A stretch of 64,000 nucleotides of DNA, from the IMG/VR virus record IMGVR_UViG_3300046812_000216, positions 3,738 to 67,737 of that record, one strand, 5' to 3'. Positions 1,752-23,856 of the stretch are shown here, piece by piece (within the stretch, counting starts at the first letter, position 1; every line of letters begins with the position of its first letter). A model generated the notes under the pieces. The model searched no databases and had not been told where the DNA came from. It was given only the letters and a program-made list of their open reading frames with translations. This DNA is from a virus. The position numbers were made by a program, and so were the translations under genes.

Positions 1752-1777
1752 GGGGAGCCGCGTGAACGACTCCCCTG
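1751..1777. terminator. Stem-loop AGGGGAG...CTCCCCT
   Basis: Inverted repeat directly after a stop codon and adjacent to the solo pentamer repeat; no clear U tract. Confidence 0.4.
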
Positions 1778-1780
1778 TTT

Positions 1781-1835
1781 GCCATGCCAAGCCCCGCCTT
1801 ACCACGCCCAACCAAGCCGTGCCACGCCAAGCCAT
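1781..1835 (-). ncRNA. Solo GGY-NN pentamer unit (candidate guide RNA)
   Basis: 11 perfect RCC-NN pentamers on +: gccAT gccAA gccCC gccTT accAC gccCA accAA gccGT gccAC gccAA gccAT. Intergenic and flanked by hairpins. Confidence 0.7.
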
Positions 1836-1878
1836 CCTCTCTTTGGATGCGGAATGAGACAAAAATGAGGATCAGATA

Positions 1879-2408: not shown

Positions 2409-5400
2409 ATGGGTGGCAAGACTCAGCAATCATCTTCGCAAGTCTCGATACCTCCTGAAGTGCTCGCTCGCTATAATAGCGTCAACGCTCAAGCTCAAAA
2501 TGTCGCTGCGACGCCGTTCCAGCAATATTCGTCAGATCCGAATGCTTTTGTCGCGCCGCTCACCACCGCGCAGCAGGCTGGCATCCAGCAGACGGGCCAG
2601 TACGCCAACGCCGCGCAGCCATGGCTCCAGCAGGCCGGAAACATGACGATGGCGGGGTCCGGGGCCGCGACGCCGGGCGCGCTCGGCGCTGACCAGATCA
2701 ACCAGTATATGTCGCCATACACAGCAGGCGTCACCAACCAGATGACGCAATTGATGAACCAGCAGGCCCAGACCGCGCAATCGGGTCAGATGGGCAACGC
2801 CATCAAGAGCGGAGCTTTCGGCGGCGACCGCGCTGGCGTGGCGGCGGCCAACCTTCAGGGCCAGAATGCGCTCGCCTACGGCAACGCTATGGCTCCGGTT
2901 TTGCAACAAGGTTATAACACCGCGCTCCAAACCGCAGGCCAGCAGCAGCAACTCGATTATGCGTCTCAGCAGGCCAACCTACAGCGCCAGATGGCGGGCG
3001 GCCAGCAGATGGCTGGCCTAGGCATGAACGCCCAGCAGGCGGGCCTCGCAGGCGCGCAGGCGATGATGGGCGCGGGTCAGATGCAGCAGCAGACCCAGCA
3101 GGCGGGCCAGAGCGCGCTCTACAACCAATATCAGCAGCAGCAGAGCTATCCCTTCCAAGTGATGTCGTTCCTAGCGAACATCGCGGAGGGGACCGGCGCG
3201 CTGTCGGGACAAACAACGAACACAACCCAGCCCGCGCCGTTCTTCTCCGACCGGCGCCTGAAGGAGAACGTCAAGAAGATCGGCACCGCCAAGAACGGCC
3301 TGCCGATTCATTCCTTCAACTACAAGGACGATCCGGACAAGCTCACCCGGCTCGGCTTCATGGCCGACGAGGTCGAGAAGAAGCACCCGGAGGCGGTGGG
3401 CCTCGCTGGCGGCTACAAGACGGTCGATTACAAGCGCGCGGCCAGATCTTACGGCGGCGGCCTTGTCCCCATCGAATCTTCCGGCGGCAGCGTCACCGAC
3501 TTCGATCAGGGCGCGGCCTATGATCGCGGCGGATATGGCGACGGCGGAGGTCCGAATATTCAGGATTTGCTCAAGCAGCAGTCCCAGTCATATGCCCCGA
3601 TTACCGGAGGCGAAGAGCGTGACGTGACCGCAGGCCTGCCCGGCAAAGCCAAGAAGGGGCTCGCCGCCGCGTCACAAGGCCAACCGCGTCAGCCGCTGAA
3701 GCCAGCACAGGCGCCGGGTCAGCAGCCAAGCGCCCTGTCACAGGTTTCTCAACTCGGCCAGCAGGCCAAGAGCCTAGTCGATACCGGCCAGAAGGGTTGG
3801 GCTGGCGCGCAGGCTCTCAACAAGAACTTGTCGCAAGACACGGCGCCACAGAAAGATGCTCCTGTCACCCCAGCCGCTCCGCCTTCGCAGGATGTTCCCA
3901 CTGCTGCGCCGCCCGCGCCCATTGTGAATCCAGACACGCCAGCGCCAGAGCTTGACAACGCGCGCGGCGGTCTGATCCCGCGCCACGGCTACGCCACCGA
4001 TGGCGAAGTCCAGCCGTCCGGCGTCCCGGCAATGGTGCAGACTTCCGTCCCGTCGAACCTGTTGGCTGAGACGAAGGAATATCAGCAGGGCCGCGACGAG
4101 GCCCAGCAGGCGCAAGTCCGCGCCAACAATGTGCAGGACCAGCAGCGCGCCAACCTCGCCTCGGCAGGCATCAGCGCCACGCCGGACATGACGCCCTTCG
4201 GCCAGATGATGGCGGCGCGCGGCTTGCAGAATTCAGCAAAGGTCTACGGCGCGCCCGGCGGCTATTACGACCCGACCAATGGCGGCTCGATGTTTGGCAG
4301 TCGCGGCGGCCTGATGGGCCGCAGCCATTTCGAAAGCGGCGGCGACGCTCCCTACGAGGGCGACACCGGCCCCGGCGGGCTCGACATCCCGGTCGATCAA
4401 AGCTGGCGCGAAGACAAAAAAGAAGAAGACGCCATGGCGCCCAAGCCTCCGCCCAGCAGCGGCGGCAGCGGAGCCAGCGATGCGCTTGGCGCGATCAAGG
4501 GAATCGCCGGACTCGCGACGATGTTTCTCGGCACTGGCGGCCTCGCTGGCCGCCGCAGGCGCGAGGACGGAGGCGAACTTAAATCCGATCTTCCCGGCCT
4601 GCCGCCAGATGAAGGCGGCCCTCCCGATTCTGTGGCGGCTCCGGCGGCTCCGCAGAATTCCGGAACGCCAGAGCGTAGCTGGTGGGATAATCTGTGGGGC
4701 GGCGGCGATCTTAAATACATTCCCCCAGCAGAGCAGCATGCTCCCAACGATGATCTTGACCCGCGCGGACCCGGTGGCGCATGGGCGCCATATGGCGCAA
4801 AAGAAACCCCTGCGCCATTGCCTCCGCCGCGTCCGGCCGGGCTGGTCGCCGCCCAGCCCCATGAACGCGCTGTCGCCACGGATATGCCTGAGCGCCAGCA
4901 CAAGGCGACTGGTGTGGCTCCGCGCGAGGCGCAGGCCAGAGCAGAACAACCGAGAGGACGCCAGCCCATCATGATGATGGCGGCGCCGGAAGGTGGAGAA
5001 AAACTCCAGCCCGGTTATCACGGCGACTTTTTTGAAAACTGGGGCCGCGCCGATGGCGGCCGGATCTATCGCGATGACGGCGGCGCCCTTCAGTCGGATC
5101 TTCCCGGCCTCCCGGAGGACGAGGGAGGCCCGCCAGCGCCCAAGGAGCCAGTCTCTGAGCCTGAGCGCCCCAACCTTAGAGATGCGCCTCTGCCGCCCGT
5201 TAAACCCGCTGGTCTGGTTCATACAGGCATGGGCAATGGCCCCTTCCAAGATGTCGATTCCGAAGGGAATGTGATCGACAACAAAAATCTTCCTGAAAGC
5301 CCGCGCGCGCCGCCGGTTCGCCCGAAGACGCTTGCCCAAGCCGCTTCCGCGCATCCGAATCCGCGCGAATTCACGGCCGAGACTTCCTCTGCTGGCGAGG

Positions 5401-19598: not shown

Positions 19599-20119
19599 TC
19601 GACAGTGACGGTGACGGCCTCCTTGCCTTTCAATTCTGCGATGTGGGGGAAACCCTTGACGGCGGCGTCGTAGACGCTCTTGAGGTGATCGTGGCCGGAC
19701 TCGAACCAATTGACGCGGTCTTCCGGGAACTTGATTTCTCTTTTCTTGAAATCCTCGAAAGCGTCGAGGACGATCTTGTAAGAGTCGGCGGCCAGACCAA
19801 AAATCGCGCCGACATCGGACATCATCGGCAGGGCGCCGTCATGTTCTTCCTTGATGCTTTCCAGCGTCTCGATGTAGGAGTTTTTGGCGGCGATGTTGTC
19901 GAGCACCGCCTTGCCATATTCGACAAAGATCATGAGATCGCCATCGAGCTTGTCGCTGTTCTTGCTTGTGAGGTAAGTCTCGATCTTGACCTCAAGGGCG
20001 GCGATCTTCTCCATGCAGGCGATTTCTTTCTCGCAGCAGGAAATAAGCTCCGAGACACAGAGCCCCAGCAGCAGGCAATCGGAAATCACGTTTTTATGGA
20101 GGGCCATGGTTTTTTGCAT
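19595..20119 (-). CDS. Hypothetical protein
   Basis: 174 aa helical ORF. Confidence 0.6.
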   Translation of the reverse strand: MQKTMALHKNVISDCLLLGLCVSELISCCEKEIACMEKIAALEVKIETYLTSKNSDKLDGDLMIFVEYGKAVLDNIAAKNSYIETLESIKEEHDGALPMMSDVGAIFGLAADSYKIVLDAFEDFKKREIKFPEDRVNWFESGHDHLKSVYDAAVKGFPHIAELKGKEAVTVTVE

Positions 20120-20197
20120 TTCGTTCGTCCGTTCTTGGTGGTGAGGCCCGCATCTTCGGGCTGATTCGGGCCTCGTGTCAACAATGAAAAGCGAAAA

Positions 20198-20704
20198 TTA
20201 TTCGCCTTCCGAGATTTCGCGAATGTTCTGGATGGCGTCGCGAATTTTGGTCATTTTCGCCGTGTTTCTGGTTTTCTCCGATACCGGCGCGATGCGAAGC
20301 AAAAGAGCCACCGAATGCTCCAGATCGGCGATTTTCGAGAAAAACTCGCGAAGCGCAAGGTCAAACTGGTCCGGCTGGCCGATAAGCCTGACGGTGGGCG
20401 TGTAGACCGGATCTGAGGTTTCCGTGCGCGGAACGTGCGTCCACGCCTGAATTTCAACCGGATCTCCCTTGGCGTCATTGCAGACGACCGTGACCTGTCT
20501 GATCAGGCTCCGCGCCTGATGGACGCGGTGGGCCTCGCCCGCGACCGCATCGTCCCACTCGAAAGCCGGGTGGAGGACGGCGCCTTCCGGCCGGGATTCA
20601 TTCACGACATCTTTTGCGTGAAGGCCGCCTTTCTCTTCGTCGATGCGCTCAAGCTCCGTCTGGATCTTTTCGACCTCGACGCCTGCGATTGTCCGTTTAG
20701 TCAT
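20198..20704 (-). CDS. Conserved phage protein immediately downstream of the GGY-NN array (candidate accessory/effector)
   Basis: RBS GGAGA between the array end and the start codon; motif GLHAKDVVNESR...LHPAFEWDDAVAGEAHRVHQARSLIR. Confidence 0.75.
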   Translation of the reverse strand: MTKRTIAGVEVEKIQTELERIDEEKGGLHAKDVVNESRPEGAVLHPAFEWDDAVAGEAHRVHQARSLIRQVTVVCNDAKGDPVEIQAWTHVPRTETSDPVYTPTVRLIGQPDQFDLALREFFSKIADLEHSVALLLRIAPVSEKTRNTAKMTKIRDAIQNIREISEGE

Positions 20705-20724
20705 TTACTTTCTCCATGTTAATT

Positions 20725-22015
20725 GCCTGCCTTGCCAGACCGGGCGGAACCCCGCCTAGCCTTGCCGCGCCTTGCCTGCCGCGCCTTACCCCACCGCGCC
20801 TTGCCCCTCCAAACACTGCCGCGCCCTGCCTGCCTCGCCGAGCCCCGCCGCACCTGACCGGGCCTCGCCTGCCTTGCCCGGCCGAGCCGCGCGGCGCCGC
20901 GCCACGTATCGCCATGCCTGCCTTGCCTTGCCGCACCCAACCGTGCGCCGCCAAGCCTAGCGCTGCCTGCCTTGCCTATCCGCGCCAAGCCTTGCCTTGC
21001 CCGACCCAGCCTTGCCGAGCCTCGCCTGCCTGCCTTGCCGGGCCGTGCCATTCCTAGCCGGACCCCGCCTTGCCTGCCGCGCCCGGCCTGACCATGCCTT
21101 GCCATGCCGGGCCACACCACGCCTGCCGCGCCCCGCCTAGCCCCGCCTTGCCTAGACGTGCCTTGCCTCGCCGTGCCTGCCTTGCCTTGCCTTGCCGGGC
21201 CAGTCCTCGCCCCGCCTCGCCTTGCCACGCCTGCCTCGCCCCGCCAGACCGAGCCGCGCCCAGATCTGCCGCGCCGCGCCTGCCACGCCATGCCTAACCG
21301 TGCCGCGCCGAAACAAGCCATGCCATGCCTGCCGCGCCTCTCCATGCCAAGCCGCTCCCGGCCCGACCTTGCCTCGCCTGCCTCGCCGCGCCTCGCCACG
21401 CCTTGCCTCGCCACGCCTTGCCTGCCTTGCCTCGCCAGACCCCGCCCAGCCCTGCGTCGCCGCGCCAGCCGTTGCCTCGCCCCGCCTGCCTCGCCGAGCC
21501 GATCCGAGCCGAGCCCTGCCTTGCCAGACCGAGCCTGCCGAGCCAAGCCTGACCCTGCCCAGCCGTGCCTAGTCATGCCTGCCGTGCCGCGCCCCGCCTC
21601 GCCTCGCCGCTCCTTGCCTGCGTTGCCTGACCATACCCGGCCTTGCCACGCCGTGCCGTGCCTGCCGAGCCTTGCCGTGCCGCGCCGTACCCCGCCGCGC
21701 CAGTCCAGACCGGGACGGACCCAGCCTTGCCTTGCCTTGCCGCGCCTGCCGTGCCTGACCGTGACCAGCCTTGCCTTGCCTCGCCGCGCCTGCCGTGCCG
21801 TGCTATGCCGGGCCTCGCCATACCGAGCCGAGCCGCGCCACGCGCTGCCTGCCTTGCCCTGCCTGACCTGACCTAGCCACGCCTGACCGGACCAAGCCTT
21901 GCCCCGCCTGCCCTGCCCTGCCCCGCCGCGCCTTGCCTAGCCTAGCCGTGCCGGGCCTTGCCTGCCGTGCCACACCTTGCCGAGTCGCGCCGAGCCCAGC
22001 GTTGCCACGCCTGCG
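20725..22015 (-). ncRNA. Array of 25 GGY-NN pentamer units separated by GGCAGGC (candidate guide-RNA array, not a CRISPR)
   Basis: GCCTGC(C/G) separators on + start at 20725, 20774, 20828, 20867, 20916, 20965, 21024/21028, 21072, 21121, 21175, 21229, 21278, 21327, 21376, 21420, 21484, 21533, 21577, 21616, 21660, 21744, 21788, 21847, 21906, 21960, 22009. All unit lengths are 39/44/49/54/59/64/84, i.e. 5n+4. Confidence 0.85.
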
Positions 22016-22020
22016 GCGTT

Positions 22021-22048
22021 ATTGGCGCAGAGAGAACCCTACGCCAAT
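22021..22048 (-). promoter_or_regulatory. Leader hairpin between the RAMP-like gene and the array
   Basis: Minus-strand RNA AUUGGCGUAGGG-UUCU-CUCUGCGCCAAU forms a 12 bp stem; its two G-U pairs form only on the minus strand. Confidence 0.65.
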
Positions 22049-22056
22049 CTCTTGAT

Positions 22057-22686
22057 TTAGTTGACGATTTCGAAGGTTCCCCAGCCAAGACCGGCTGATT
22101 CTCGGCTGTCAGGACGACCTTCGCCAACGCCAACCTGTAACCCTGCTCTCAACAACAGATTGGTCACATCTGTCGCTGAAAACTGATCTGCATCAAACTT
22201 GACCTTGAGCGTCAGTCCCCACTCGCGCCACATCGGCCGGACGCGAACATCGGTCACGCCGGAGCTATTGCGGGCGTGCATTTTCAGCATTTCAGGCGCG
22301 CCGACATTGAGGCGCACCAGCGGAATTCCATCAACCCGATCCAGCCCATCGGCCAGAACAAAAACAGACATTTTTGCGACAGTCATCCGGAACCCAACCA
22401 GACGGCAGGCGCTGATCATCGCATTTCTAAATGCTGCGCAAGGAATTCCGATCCAGCCTTCGGTGCTGTAGTGGATGGCGCCGTCCATATCGGCGCTGAA
22501 GTTTCGCGGCTCGCGGATCTTCTTGGAGCGGGCGGTGGTGCCTTCCAGCATTTTGCCTTCCATCGCCTGCCGGGCCTTTTCGCTGAAGCGGGCCTGAACC
22601 AGAGGAGCAGTGCCGGAGAGCAGGAATTCGAGCGTCTGCACATTCGGCGCGGTGATGGCGACAACGGTCTTGATAGGAGCTTTCAT
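22057..22686 (-). CDS. Stand-alone Cas7/RAMP-like RNA-binding protein
   Basis: N-terminal strand LEFLLSGTAPLV; GIPCAAFRNAMISA (cf. the RAMP IPGSSLKGA helix); C-terminal Gly-rich loop AGLQVGVGEGRP...GLGWGTFEI. No other cas genes nearby. Confidence 0.75.
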   Translation of the reverse strand: MKAPIKTVVAITAPNVQTLEFLLSGTAPLVQARFSEKARQAMEGKMLEGTTARSKKIREPRNFSADMDGAIHYSTEGWIGIPCAAFRNAMISACRLVGFRMTVAKMSVFVLADGLDRVDGIPLVRLNVGAPEMLKMHARNSSGVTDVRVRPMWREWGLTLKVKFDADQFSATDVTNLLLRAGLQVGVGEGRPDSRESAGLGWGTFEIVN

Positions 22687-22739
22687 TTCGTTCGTTCTTT
22701 CTTTCGTTTGCGGGGGACGTTTTCCCCTCGACAATTTGC

Positions 22740-22767
22740 ACCATATCGTGTTTGATGGGTTCGTCAA
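22740..22767 (-). promoter_or_regulatory. Candidate promoter for the RAMP-array operon
   Basis: TTGACG-N16-TATGGT on the minus strand in a divergent intergenic gap. Confidence 0.4.
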
Positions 22768-22782
22768 GCACTAAAGGAGTTG

Positions 22783-22962
22783 ATGATGGCTAAAAATAAA
22801 TCCCCAAAGACTGAAGTGGTGAAGATGATCGCTTTTTCCATCCGGCTGCGGCCGGAGGTCGCCGTCAGGCTGCATCGACTGGCGGATAATGAAGAGCGAT
22901 CTGTCGCGTATATGGTCGGCAAGGCGGTCGATATGCTGCTGGCGGAGCGCGCCCGTGGATAA
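22783..22962 (+). CDS. Ribbon-helix-helix (Arc/CopG-like) regulator
   Basis: AFSIRLRPEVAVRLHRLADNEERSVAYMVGKAV; RBS AAGGAG; divergent from the RAMP-like gene. Confidence 0.75.
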   Translation: MMAKNKSPKTEVVKMIAFSIRLRPEVAVRLHRLADNEERSVAYMVGKAVDMLLAERARG

Positions 22963-23548
22963 GGCCAGCAAGAAGGAAAGGCGCGCCCAGCGAGAGGTCG
23001 AGCTTTCGGGCAAGATCCTCGCCCTGCCCGACAAACGCTATGGCGTGATCTATGCCGATCCTCCATGGCGGTTCGAGACATGGTCGGAAAACGGCATGGA
23101 TCGGTCGGCCGAGAACCATTATCCATGCATGAGCCTCGACGCCATCGCCAATATGCCGGTGCCGAAGATCATGGCTAGGGACTGCGCCCTGTTCATGTGG
23201 GCGACTGTCCCGATGCTGGTGAGCGCGCTCAACGTCATGCATTTATGGGGATTCACCTATAAGAGCCATGCGATCTGGGTGAAGCCAAACGCCATCACCG
23301 GCTATTGGTTCAGGAATCGGCACGAATTGCTGCTGGTCGGCACGCGCGGCCAGATCCCGGCGCCAGCGCTGGGGACGCAATTCGAATCGGTGTTTCTGGC
23401 GCCGACCAGCGTCCACAGCGCCAAGCCGGAAAAGGCGGCGCAGATGATCGAGCATTATTATCCCAACATTCCAAAAGTTGAATTGTTTTGCCGTGGTGCG
23501 CCGCGTCCCGGCTGGTCTGGCTGGGGTCAGGAGTGCGAAGGTGAATAA
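22955..23548 (+). CDS. MT-A70 family N6-adenine methyltransferase
   Basis: YGVIYADPPW, HYPCM, LFMWAT, GYWFRNRHELLLVGTRG, HSAKP, VELFCRG. Confidence 0.92.
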   Translation: MDKASKKERRAQREVELSGKILALPDKRYGVIYADPPWRFETWSENGMDRSAENHYPCMSLDAIANMPVPKIMARDCALFMWATVPMLVSALNVMHLWGFTYKSHAIWVKPNAITGYWFRNRHELLLVGTRGQIPAPALGTQFESVFLAPTSVHSAKPEKAAQMIEHYYPNIPKVELFCRGAPRPGWSGWGQECEGE

Positions 23549-23551
23549 TAA

Positions 23552-23612
23552 GGCAGGCTTGGCAAGGCGTGGCACGGTGTAGCAAGGCCCGGCAGGGTTT
23601 GGCATGGCAGGC
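23552..23612 (+). ncRNA. Solo complete GGY-NN unit flanked by GGCAGGC at both ends (candidate guide RNA)
   Basis: ggca ggcTT ggcAA ggcGT ggcAC ggtGT agcAA ggcCC ggcAG ggtTT ggcAT ggcaggc. Separator spacing is 54 = 5x10+4, the same grammar as the main array. Confidence 0.8.
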
Positions 23613-23646: not shown

Positions 23647-23856
23647 ATGCCGGGCGACGACGAAGAAGACCTCAAAATGATGCCGATCAGTGTAAATTTT
23701 GTGCTGCCGGTCGGCATGATTCGCGCCATCGAGGGCGCGGCGCGCGCCGAAAACCTCGCCCCTGCCGACTGGATCGTTCAGGTCATGTCGGAGAAACTCG
23801 GCTTCACAGTATTTTTCAACCCGCCGGAAGCGCCACCCCGCAACGAGCTTAACTGA
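23647..23856 (+). CDS. Small RHH-like protein
   Basis: RBS AGGAGA; beta-alpha-alpha pattern ISVNFVLPVGMIRAIEGAARAENLAPADWIVQVMSEKL. Confidence 0.55.
   Translation: MPGDDEEDLKMMPISVNFVLPVGMIRAIEGAARAENLAPADWIVQVMSEKLGFTVFFNPPEAPPRNELN

What the first reader, a model, noticed from the sequence alone, without database searches (positions are those of the whole stretch)
21960..22203. First array unit decodes to a gapped near-match of the RAMP gene itself, skipping wobble positions
The unit nearest the gene (21960-22009) has + strand NNs GT AC TT GA GC GA CA TT AC. The RAMP gene at 22203-22177 reads GTc AAg TTt GAt GCa GAt CAg TTt TCa (VKFDADQFS). That is 16/18 identity at codon positions 1-2 with position 3 skipped. 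The minus-strand RNA would be antisense to the coding strand. A perfect target would encode something like V-T-F-D-A-D-Q-F-T, i.e. a homologue of this gene in a rival phage, with two mismatches protecting self. Weak autoregulation is an alternative. The match implies a rule of pair 2, skip 1, which is blind to most synonymous escape mutations.
Basis: partly seen in the sequence, partly recalled or inferred. Interest (0 to 1): 0.9.

Follow-up and report, generated by a model that had tools for sequence, protein, structure and literature searches.

The report
VIPR guide RNA matching its own gene
This soil phage carries a VIPR system, a CRISPR-like RNA-guided DNA silencer first described in 2026, and the first guide of its 25-guide array really does spell a stretch of the system's own protein gene with two misses, probably to hit rival phages' copies.

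Summary
The first array unit (21967-22011) decodes to GT AC TT GA GC GA CA TT AC. Read as pair 2, skip 1, it matches 22203-22178 of the upstream gene at 16/18, in codon register.

The expected number of such hits per random guide is 3e-5 in that gene and 4e-3 in the whole 67.7-kb phage genome. It is the only outlier among 275 guides tested against 96 homologous genes.

The system is already in print. It is a VIPR locus (bioRxiv 10.64898/2026.04.26.720920, .720927 and 2026.10.15.759431), made of a Vipr RAMP protein, GGY/NN vrRNAs, the "1 nt skip rule" with the wobble base skipped, and a "staggered" array. Guides aimed at vipr genes are also published.

No perfect target was found. Of 100 distinct homologous sites, 5 score 17/18 and none 18/18. 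The one exact hit in IMG/VR lies in an unrelated gene, out of codon phase. The phage's own copy (16/18) matches better than 83 of the 100, so self-protection by two mismatches is unproven and autoregulation remains open.

A second, solo guide also near-matches its neighbouring gene (16/20). This scan has noted similar cases in other genomes.

Verdict: a new member of a known kind.

The parts
22740..22767 (-). Promoter-like site (TTGACG, 16-nt spacer, TATGGT) upstream of vipr
   Evidence: Consensus scan. It was the only such site in 19900-23100. This is a pattern match only.
22057..22686 (-). vipr gene: a 209-aa RAMP (Cas7-like) protein, the effector of the VIPR system
   Evidence: Pfam and NCBIfam give nothing; phrog_4652 has unknown function. 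At least 4809 homologues were found. The family profile hits PDB 36pp 'SUSP1 Vipr protein' at E 9.5e-5. The pairwise alignment puts the invariant R150 on the published thumb residue R138, and GVGEGRP on the G-loop GVGDWRP. The AF2 model has pLDDT 80.8. Foldseek's top hits are Csm3/Cas7 at E about 2e-5.
22178..22203 (-). Near-target of guide 1 inside vipr (codons V162-S170, VKFDADQFS)
   Evidence: 16/18 at gap 1 in codon phase. No variant letters were seen here in the metagenome contigs that cover it.
22021..22048 (-). 12-bp hairpin between the vipr stop codon and the array
   Evidence: RNA fold. Both stem changes in a variant haplotype (22023, 22041) keep pairing. A hairpin sits at the same place in L088.
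21963..22015 (-). vrRNA unit 1: 9 GGY/NN pentamers between a CGCA and a GGCA junction. RNA-sense NN string is GT AA TG TC GC TC AA GT AC.
   Evidence: 7 of 9 scaffold triplets are GGY (the others are CGC and GAC). The only population variant in the unit is 21974, which changes GGU to GGC in the RNA and so keeps the Y.
20727..22015 (-). Staggered vrRNA array: 25 units of 7-16 (mostly 8-11) GGY/NN pentamers, separated by 4-mer GGCA junctions (a 1-nt overlap, GGCA|GGC)
   Evidence: 209 of 242 parsed triplets are GGY. There are 26 GGCA junctions and 1 CGCA. The architecture fits the legend of fig. S18 in 10.64898/2026.04.26.720920.
20198..20704 (-). Candidate vap (vipr-accessory) gene, 168 aa
   Evidence: phrog_15946, unknown function. 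Homologues lie downstream of vipr in most related loci; 82 loci besides the window gave a tblastn hit. The AF2 model has pLDDT 85.3. The best fold matches are weak (E 0.08 or worse) and are winged-helix regulators.
23552..23609 (+). Solo vrRNA unit (GGCA, 10 pentamers, GGCA) in the 5' leader of the next gene
   Evidence: Its best match in the genome at gap 1 is 16/20.
23791..23819 (+). Near-target of the solo unit inside the adjacent 75-aa gene (EKLGFTVFFN), in codon phase
   Evidence: Permuted guides reach 16/20 or more anywhere in the genome in 48 of 2000 tries. Here the hit lies in the neighbouring gene.

Best explanation
The region is the first guide (vrRNA 1) of a 25-unit staggered VIPR array. 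The array is probably transcribed with the vipr gene from a promoter near 22740-22767.

By the published mechanism, one Vipr protomer binds each GGY triplet. The exposed NN dinucleotides pair with a DNA strand, skipping every third base, and the filament blocks transcription.

Guide 1 is a vipr-directed guide. Its code spells the V-x-F-D-A-D-Q-F-T segment in the last quarter of vipr genes. Most likely it is aimed at the vipr genes of related phages that meet this phage in the same host. Binding there would stop transcription before the G-loop codons and before the rival's array and vap gene. The phage's own copy differs at two codon-defining bases, both amino-acid changes (Lys163 where the guide reads Thr, Ser170 where the guide reads Thr).

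Shown here: the identity of the system, the match, and its non-randomness. Inferred: expression and processing of unit 1, that a rival with a better site exists, and that two mismatches weaken binding to the own copy.
For: System identity: RAMP fold, similarity to the solved Vipr; GGY/NN units; published rule, mechanism and staggered arrays.

Non-chance. Among 275 distinct guides from all loci scored against 96 distinct vipr genes, the mismatch distribution equals the shuffled null except for this one guide. Its best hit has 1 mismatch; the null minimum is 3.

Direction towards relatives:
- The guide's AC at codon 170 is the family's commonest state (49% of homologues, against 23% for the own TC).
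- Thr at that position is found in 100 of 119 family proteins.
- Five distinct homologous sites score 17/18, above self: VRFDADQFT in L023 and VTFDADLFT in L051, L127, L129 and L131.
- Both self mismatches are non-synonymous, which is the only way to escape a wobble-blind code.

Precedent: vrRNAs that target other VIPR systems, and vipr near its 3' end, are described in the preprints.

Unit 1's NN letters and the own site are unchanged in a haplotype that differs at 21 of 200 neighbouring bases.
Against: - No 18/18 site was found among 100 distinct homologous sites or in a vipr gene in IMG/VR.
- The own copy (16/18, 0.89) passes the published cut-off of 80% or more for calling a natural target. 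It beats 83 of the 100 homologous sites.
- The nearest relatives known as proteins read VKFDADQFS (98% and 91% identical, the same as self), IQFDADQFT and VRFDADQFT. By my own reading of their codons, those are 16, 15 and 16-17 of 18.
- The targeted window ranks only 56th of 201 for conservation. The G-loop window would be a broader target.
- Vipr-directed guides are not a habit of this clade: 1 of 275.
- Mismatch tolerance of VIPR is not given in the main texts I read.
- No expression data exist for this phage.
Confidence: 0.5

Rival explanations
1. Autoregulation. The Vipr-vrRNA 1 filament binds the phage's own vipr at 22178-22203, with partial complementarity tuning the strength. It acts as a roadblock about 480 nt into the gene. 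This lowers full-length vipr, the array (including vrRNA 1 itself) and vap, giving negative feedback. The solo guide would likewise control the neighbouring 75-aa gene.
For: - The self match of 0.89 passes the published target cut-off of 80% or more.
- The guide matches self better than 83 of 100 homologous sites.
- Guide and site are both invariant in a haplotype whose neighbouring 200 bases differ at 21 places.
- A second guide has its best genome-wide match (16/20, codon phase) in its own adjacent gene.
- Two such local matches never arose in 3000 shuffles.
- No terminator-like site lies between vipr and the array.
- Published VIPR silences rather than cuts in the type studied, so self-binding need not be lethal.
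Against: - It is not conserved. 244 guides in 64 related loci show no excess of matches to their own locus (3 at p of 0.01 or less, 2.4 expected).
- None of 54 guide units from 12 related loci (two pairs are duplicates) matches its own vipr comparably.
- The two mismatches sit where relatives carry the guide's letters, which autoregulation does not predict.
- The preprints report no self-targeting hits in the clades they screened.
- 'autoregul' occurs nowhere in the October preprint. The matching look-up in the discovery paper failed on a syntax error and was not redone.
Confidence: 0.27
2. Relic. Unit 1 was once a perfect guide, against an ancestral or rival vipr. Guide or site has since drifted, and the unit no longer does anything.
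For: - Two of its nine scaffold triplets are not GGY.
- No perfect target was found.
- Array-end units are the ones least reshuffled in the population data, so an old unit could persist there.
Against: - The NN letters are unchanged across haplotypes, and the only change in the unit keeps GGY.
- The share of non-GGY scaffolds in unit 1 (2 of 9) is close to the array average (33 of 242).
Confidence: 0.18
3. Pure coincidence between a short degenerate code and a coding sequence.
For: Genome-wide, about 25 guides give roughly a 0.1 chance of one 16/18 hit somewhere.
Against: - The expectation in the gene is 3e-5 per guide.
- This guide is the unique outlier among 275 guides against 96 genes.
- The match is in codon phase.
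- A second local match exists.
Confidence: 0.04

Closest known systems
VIPR systems (Viral Interference Programmable Repeat); experimental exemplars are the type II systems of Escherichia phage SUSP1 and a Pseudomonas fulva prophage (bioRxiv 10.64898/2026.04.26.720920 and .720927; Results, Discussion and some Methods read)
   Same: A phage-borne lone RAMP protein of about 20 kDa, GGY/NN pentamer guide RNAs, a neighbouring accessory gene, a 1-nt skip code with the wobble base skipped, and targets in competing mobile elements.
   Different: The protein is only distantly similar (profile E 9.5e-5 over about 50 residues). The G-loop reads GEGRP where SUSP1 has GDWRP. There are 25 units with no structured 3' tail between them, where SUSP1 has 4 vrRNAs each with a pseudoknot tail. 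The accessory gene has no recognisable family. Nothing here is tested experimentally.
[quoted passage not shown]
   Same: [quoted passage not shown] Here that is the GGCA|GGC junction, found 26 times.
   Different: I could not see which VIPR type or which genomes the figure shows, so membership of that exact clade is unverified.
vipr-targeting vrRNAs: P. fulva-clade guides against other VIPR systems, and solo vrRNAs of VIPR-null SUSP1-like phages (10.64898/2026.10.15.759431, section 8 read)
   Same: [quoted passage not shown]
   Different: There the carriers have lost vipr, or (for the vrRNA-targeting guides) the self-match is reported as lower than the non-self match. Here the carrier keeps vipr, and its own copy matches at 0.89, better than most relatives.
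Class 1 CRISPR Cas7 backbones (Csm3, type VII Cas7)
   Same: The fold (Foldseek E about 2e-5). According to the preprints, a thumb that flips bases periodically.
   Different: There are no CRISPR repeats or spacers and no other cas genes. The guide is read 2 of every 5 bases, and the target 2 of every 3.
Guide-RNA autoregulation of CRISPR-Cas by partly matching natural guides (long tracrRNA of Cas9; CreR-type RNAs). Recalled, not looked up here.
   Same: A natural guide with incomplete complementarity to its own effector operon would give negative feedback.
   Different: This is an analogy for the rival reading only. No evidence for it was obtained here.

Membership tests
VIPR system | Vipr protein: stand-alone RAMP with RRM core, G-loop and thumb | tested here: met
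   Family profile against PDB hits 36pp 'SUSP1 Vipr protein' at E 9.5e-5. R150 aligns to the thumb residue R138 and E189/R191 to the G-loop residues D177/R179. Foldseek's best hits are Csm3/Cas7.
VIPR system | Tandem GGY/NN pentamer repeats, about 9-16 per vrRNA, next to vipr | tested here: met
   25 units of 7-16 pentamers; 209 of 242 triplets are GGY. Like arrays flank the homologue in all 12 related loci parsed.
VIPR system | Accessory (vap) gene in the locus | tested here: inconclusive
   A conserved 168-aa gene follows vipr or the array in most related loci. Its fold matches are weak (E 0.08 or worse, winged-helix regulators). It could not be equated with any of the published vap1-6.
VIPR system | Carried by a virus or provirus | tested here: met
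   The record is a 67,737-bp virus record. Its neighbours are phage genes.
VIPR system | Target recognition with one skipped base per dinucleotide | tested here: met
   This is indirect. Only gap 1 gives the outlier matches: unit 1 scores 13, 16, 13, 14 of 18 and the solo unit 14, 16, 14, 13 of 20 at gaps 0-3. Both matches are in codon phase.
VIPR system | vrRNAs are expressed, processed and bound by Vipr | not testable with these tools
   None of the 24 listed runs is on record as RNA. This needs small-RNA sequencing or a pull-down.
Anti-vipr vrRNA with self-avoidance (as in 10.64898/2026.10.15.759431) | Identity score of 0.8 or more to a vipr coding sequence | tested here: met
   Self scores 0.89. 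39 of 100 distinct homologous sites score 15/18 or more.
Anti-vipr vrRNA with self-avoidance (as in 10.64898/2026.10.15.759431) | Self-match lower than the match to rivals | tested here: inconclusive
   5 of 100 distinct sites beat self (17/18), 12 tie and 83 are lower. None is perfect. DNA of the closest relatives (76-98% identical proteins) could not be fetched.

The most novel reading that the evidence does not exclude
In this phage, VIPR guides have been turned inward. vrRNA 1 throttles its own vipr-array-vap operon, and the solo guide throttles the neighbouring small gene, each through deliberately imperfect matches. VIPR would then serve as the phage's own programmable gene-regulation circuit, not only as a weapon.
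Probability: 0.25. Interest if true: 0.7.

Novelty: new member of a known kind. Interest (0 to 1): 0.35.

Why it matters
The locus independently recovers the VIPR code from sequence alone. In this distant, staggered-array branch, only a one-base skip gives the outlier matches.

It also gives a concrete test case for two open points: how many mismatches VIPR tolerates, and whether a phage that keeps vipr can carry a guide that matches its own vipr at 89%. The discovery preprint reports no self-targeting at 80% or more in the clades it screened.

If the own site is bound, VIPR would have a regulatory role as well as a competitive one. If it is not, the two amino-acid changes would be an example of escape from a wobble-blind guide.

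Tried and rejected
Early ideas, dropped once the system was identified:
- a ring protein binding triplet repeats, like TRAP;
- two-layer G-quadruplexes;
- Rho loading sites on the antisense strand;
- a repetitive coding sequence. The long ORFs across the array follow from the repeat's lack of stop codons.

Searches and checks that gave nothing:
- Rfam gave no family in the window, and there are no tRNAs.
- Pfam and NCBIfam gave nothing for vipr, the vap candidate or the 75-aa gene.
- No near-identical phage was found in GenBank phages, and no homologue of the 75-aa gene in phages or in the related loci.
- Exact patterns for three long guides (11, 11 and 10 dinucleotides) and for the solo guide had 0 hits in IMG/VR.
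- The other 23 array guides have no match above the shuffled level in about 607 kb of related loci.
- 326 foreign guides do not match this phage genome above the null.
- The orphan unit at about 1775-1836 has no notable self match (14/22, below the permuted median).
- A 7-dinucleotide unit (+ strand 20835) scores 12/14 in vipr with a permutation p of about 0.01-0.02. It is too short to weigh.
- L088's first guide scores 16/20 at the end of its own vipr. Among 244 guides tested that level is expected by chance.

Limits:
- No RNA holder is listed among the 24 runs that hold the stretch, so expression is untested.
- Joints inside the array in Logan contigs may be assembly effects of the repeat. 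I use them only as a hint that unit content varies.
- The fold search for the vap candidate found nothing at E of 0.001 or less.
They hold the type assignments, the self-targeting scores and fig. S18 itself, and they may already cover this clade or this kind of self match.
Full report
**What is in the sequence.** From about 20727 to 22015 the + strand is a run of NNGCC pentamers. On the minus strand these read GGC/GGT plus two variable bases. The run is cut every 7-16 (mostly 8-11) pentamers by a 4-mer, TGCC on the + strand and GGCA on the minus strand. I count 25 units, 26 GGCA junctions and one CGCA. 209 of 242 parsed triplets are GGY.

On the minus strand the order is as follows.
- A promoter-like site at 22767-22740.
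- A 209-aa gene at 22686-22057.
- A 12-bp hairpin at 22048-22021.
- The array.
- A 168-aa gene at 20704-20198.

No terminator-like site lies between the first gene and the array. The window is a virus record; its genome is one contig of 67,737 bases.

**The observation.** The gene's coding strand at 22203-22178 matches it at 16 of 18 positions when every third base is skipped. The skipped base is the codon's third position. The misses are at codon 163 (AA where the guide reads AC) and codon 170 (TC where the guide reads AC). The RNA made from the minus strand would be complementary to the gene's coding strand.

**Chance.**
- For this unit the best match in the window is 13, 16, 13 and 14 of 18 at gaps 0, 1, 2 and 3.
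- Random guides drawn from the array's own dinucleotide pool reach 16/18 somewhere in the window in 6 of 1500 draws. Permutations of the unit do so in 3 of 1000.
- The analytic expectation per guide is 3.0e-5 in the gene and 4.2e-3 in the whole genome.
- With about 25 guides, a hit somewhere in the genome has a chance near 0.1, and a hit in this gene near 7e-4.
- In 3000 pooled shuffles of all guides, a match with 2 or fewer mismatches within 700 bp of the array arose once.
- 275 distinct guides called in the window and in related loci were scored against 96 distinct homologous genes. The distribution of best-hit mismatches equals that of shuffled guides except for this one guide, which has 1 mismatch against a null minimum of 3.

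The match is real.

**What it is.** The protein has no Pfam or NCBIfam family. It belongs to phrog_4652 (unknown function) and to a family with at least 4809 members in the protein collection.
- A profile of 27 members hits one solved structure, chain 36pp_D 'SUSP1 Vipr protein', at E 9.5e-5. A single-sequence search gives E 0.011.
- The AlphaFold model (pLDDT 80.8) is most like Csm3 and Cas7 of type III and type VII CRISPR complexes (E about 2e-5).
- That name led to three 2026 preprints.
- The first one (10.64898/2026.04.26.720920; Results, Discussion and several Methods sections read) describes VIPR systems.
  - They comprise a phage-borne RAMP protein, vrRNAs of 9-16 repeats alternating GGY and NN, and a "1 nt skip rule". 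The rule was found by the same kind of gap 0-3 search and confirmed by binding and GFP repression.
  - The skipped base falls on the wobble position, and the targets lie in competing phages and satellites.
  - The paper defines seven types, among them "staggered arrays with overlapping vrRNAs", whose legend says neighbouring vrRNAs overlap by 1 nt.
- The GGCA|GGC junction here fits that description.
- The second preprint (.720927; Results and Discussion read) gives the structures. One protomer binds each repeat, the GGY bases are held by the G-loop and thumb, the NN bases pair with the target, and the R-loop forms from the 3' to the 5' end of the vrRNA.
- In the pairwise alignment, the invariant R150 of this family lies on the published thumb residue R138, and GVGEGRP lies on the G-loop GVGDWRP.

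**Relatives.** All 12 related loci I parsed carry GGCA-punctuated GGY/NN arrays directly after the homologue, before it, or after the next gene. These were eleven viral contigs whose protein is 51-68% identical, plus the record named Cyanophage Cy-LDV1. A homologue of the 168-aa gene lies downstream of vipr in most loci; 82 loci besides the window gave a hit. Its model (pLDDT 85.3) has only weak fold matches, led by winged-helix regulators at E 0.08. It is the likely accessory gene, but I cannot equate it with a published vap.

**Rival targets or self?** The guide's perfect target would encode V-T-F-D-A-D-Q-F-T.
- An exact scan of IMG/VR found one site. It lies in an RNA-polymerase-like gene of a 112-kb contig, with the skip base at codon position 1. 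By my hand estimate, that fits the 1-2 hits expected by chance for 18 fixed bases.
- At the homologous site of 127 loci (100 distinct sequences), the guide scores as follows:

| Score of 18 | Distinct sites |
|---|---|
| 9-12 | 18 |
| 13 | 29 |
| 14 | 14 |
| 15 | 22 |
| 16 | 12 |
| 17 | 5 |
| 18 | 0 |

- The own copy, at 16, therefore equals or beats 95 of 100.
- The five better sites are VRFDADQFT (L023) and VTFDADLFT (L051, L127, L129, L131).
- In favour of an outward aim, the guide's AC at codon 170 is the family's commonest state (49%, against 23% for the own TC), and Thr stands there in 100 of 119 family proteins.
- Thr at codon 163 exists in a sub-clade.
- Both self mismatches are amino-acid changes, the only escape from a wobble-blind code.
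- Against it, the window ranks 56th of 201 for conservation.
- The closest relatives known as proteins read the same as self (98% and 91% identical), or would give 15 to 17 of 18 by my reading of their codons.
A second try through viral contigs did not find them.
- The discovery preprint calls hits of 80% or more natural targets. It reports no self-targeting at that level in the clades it screened. Here the self match is 89%.

**A second case in the same phage.** A solo unit at 23552-23609 (+ strand, 10 dinucleotides) lies in the leader of a 75-aa gene. Its best genome-wide match at gap 1 is 16/20 at 23791-23819, inside that very gene and in codon phase. Permuted guides reach 16/20 somewhere in the genome in 48 of 2000 tries, so what stands out is that the hit is next door. 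Two guides with a local match of 80% or more never arose in 3000 shuffles. No perfect target for it exists in IMG/VR, and no homologue of the gene was found.

This habit is not general in the clade. 244 guides in 64 related loci show no excess of matches to their own locus: 3 at p of 0.01 or less against 2.4 expected, and 11 at 0.05 or less against 12.2 expected.

**Population data.** 24 soil and rhizosphere metagenome runs hold the stretch; none is on record as RNA. Contigs of four of them were laid on 20150-22800.
- A variant haplotype seen in three runs differs at 21 of 200 bases between 22023 and 22162. That stretch covers the hairpin, the spacer and the last 35 codons of vipr.
- It has no change at any NN position of unit 1 and none in 22178-22203.
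- The one change inside unit 1 (21974) turns GGU into GGC in the RNA, which the GGY rule allows.
- The two changes in the hairpin stem keep pairing.
- Contigs join unit 1 to different neighbouring units at the 21962 junction, so the array's content seems to vary while unit 1 stays. Joints in a repeat may be assembly effects.

**Reading.**
- I hold the identity (a VIPR staggered array; a vipr-directed first guide) as near certain.
- For function I put 0.5 on a guide aimed at relatives' vipr genes, with the own copy carrying two escape changes.
- I put 0.27 on real binding of the own gene as feedback, 0.18 on a relic, and 0.04 on coincidence.
- The first two are not exclusive.
- The mismatches lie at the vrRNA's 5'-most repeat and at repeat 8 of 9. 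In SUSP1 the R-loop starts at the 3' end, so the second mismatch could matter more. No mismatch data were found in the main texts.

**Earlier notes of this scan.** Notes on other genomes report VIPR loci in at least 387 genomes. Several describe a first guide that nearly matches the system's own vipr or a neighbouring own gene, mostly read as weapons against siblings. I treat them as leads. They made me weigh the outward reading somewhat higher, and I did not test them.

**Novelty.** The system, the code, the staggered architecture and vipr-directed guides are all published as preprints. This is a new member. The modest new point is that a phage which keeps vipr carries a guide matching its own vipr above the published target cut-off, beside a second guide with the same relation to its neighbour.

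Noticed in passing
window 23552-23609 and 23791-23819: A solo vrRNA unit (10 dinucleotides) in the leader of a 75-aa gene has its best genome-wide gap-1 match (16/20, codon phase) inside that same gene. No perfect target exists in IMG/VR.
   Followed up: yes
window 1775-1836: An orphan run of about 11 NN(G/A)CC pentamers lies between virion genes, flanked by hairpins and without GGCA junctions. It has no notable match in the phage genome (best 14/22).
   Followed up: partly
window 22021-22048: A 12-bp hairpin lies between the vipr stop codon and the array. Two stem changes in a variant haplotype keep pairing. A hairpin sits at the same place in L088 (about 3060-3090). It could be a processing or boundary signal.
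   Followed up: partly
window 22064-22162: There is a mosaic patch. In three metagenome runs the last 35 or so codons of vipr differ at 18 bases, while the gene upstream of 22163 is identical. This suggests recombination within vipr.
   Followed up: no
window 20727-21962: Metagenome contigs show many skips and replacements at unit boundaries inside the array (for example 21294 to 21380 and 21451 to 21580 in all four runs). Unit content probably differs between populations, though assembly effects in repeats are possible.
   Followed up: partly
L114 (Mycobacterium phage Donkeykong) 2061-2400: A GGY/NN pentamer array lies directly upstream of gp49, a homologue about 31% identical to this Vipr. 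The array is annotated as the protein-coding gene gp48. Cheoctovirus mycobacteriophages and some Gordonia phages seem to carry unannotated VIPR loci.
   Followed up: partly
window 20198-20704: The 168-aa gene after the array is conserved downstream of vipr in most related loci. It has an invariant LH..F.W motif and a long C-terminal helical hairpin. Its fold matches are weak (winged-helix regulators).
   Followed up: partly
window 22780-22962 and 22889-23548: Divergent from vipr lie an Arc/CopG-type ribbon-helix-helix gene and an MT-A70 DNA methyltransferase gene. The 75-aa gene after the solo guide also looks ribbon-helix-helix-like by eye.
   Followed up: no
window 20835-20869: A short unit (7 dinucleotides) scores 12/14 inside vipr (permutation p about 0.01-0.02). 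It is too short to judge.
   Followed up: partly
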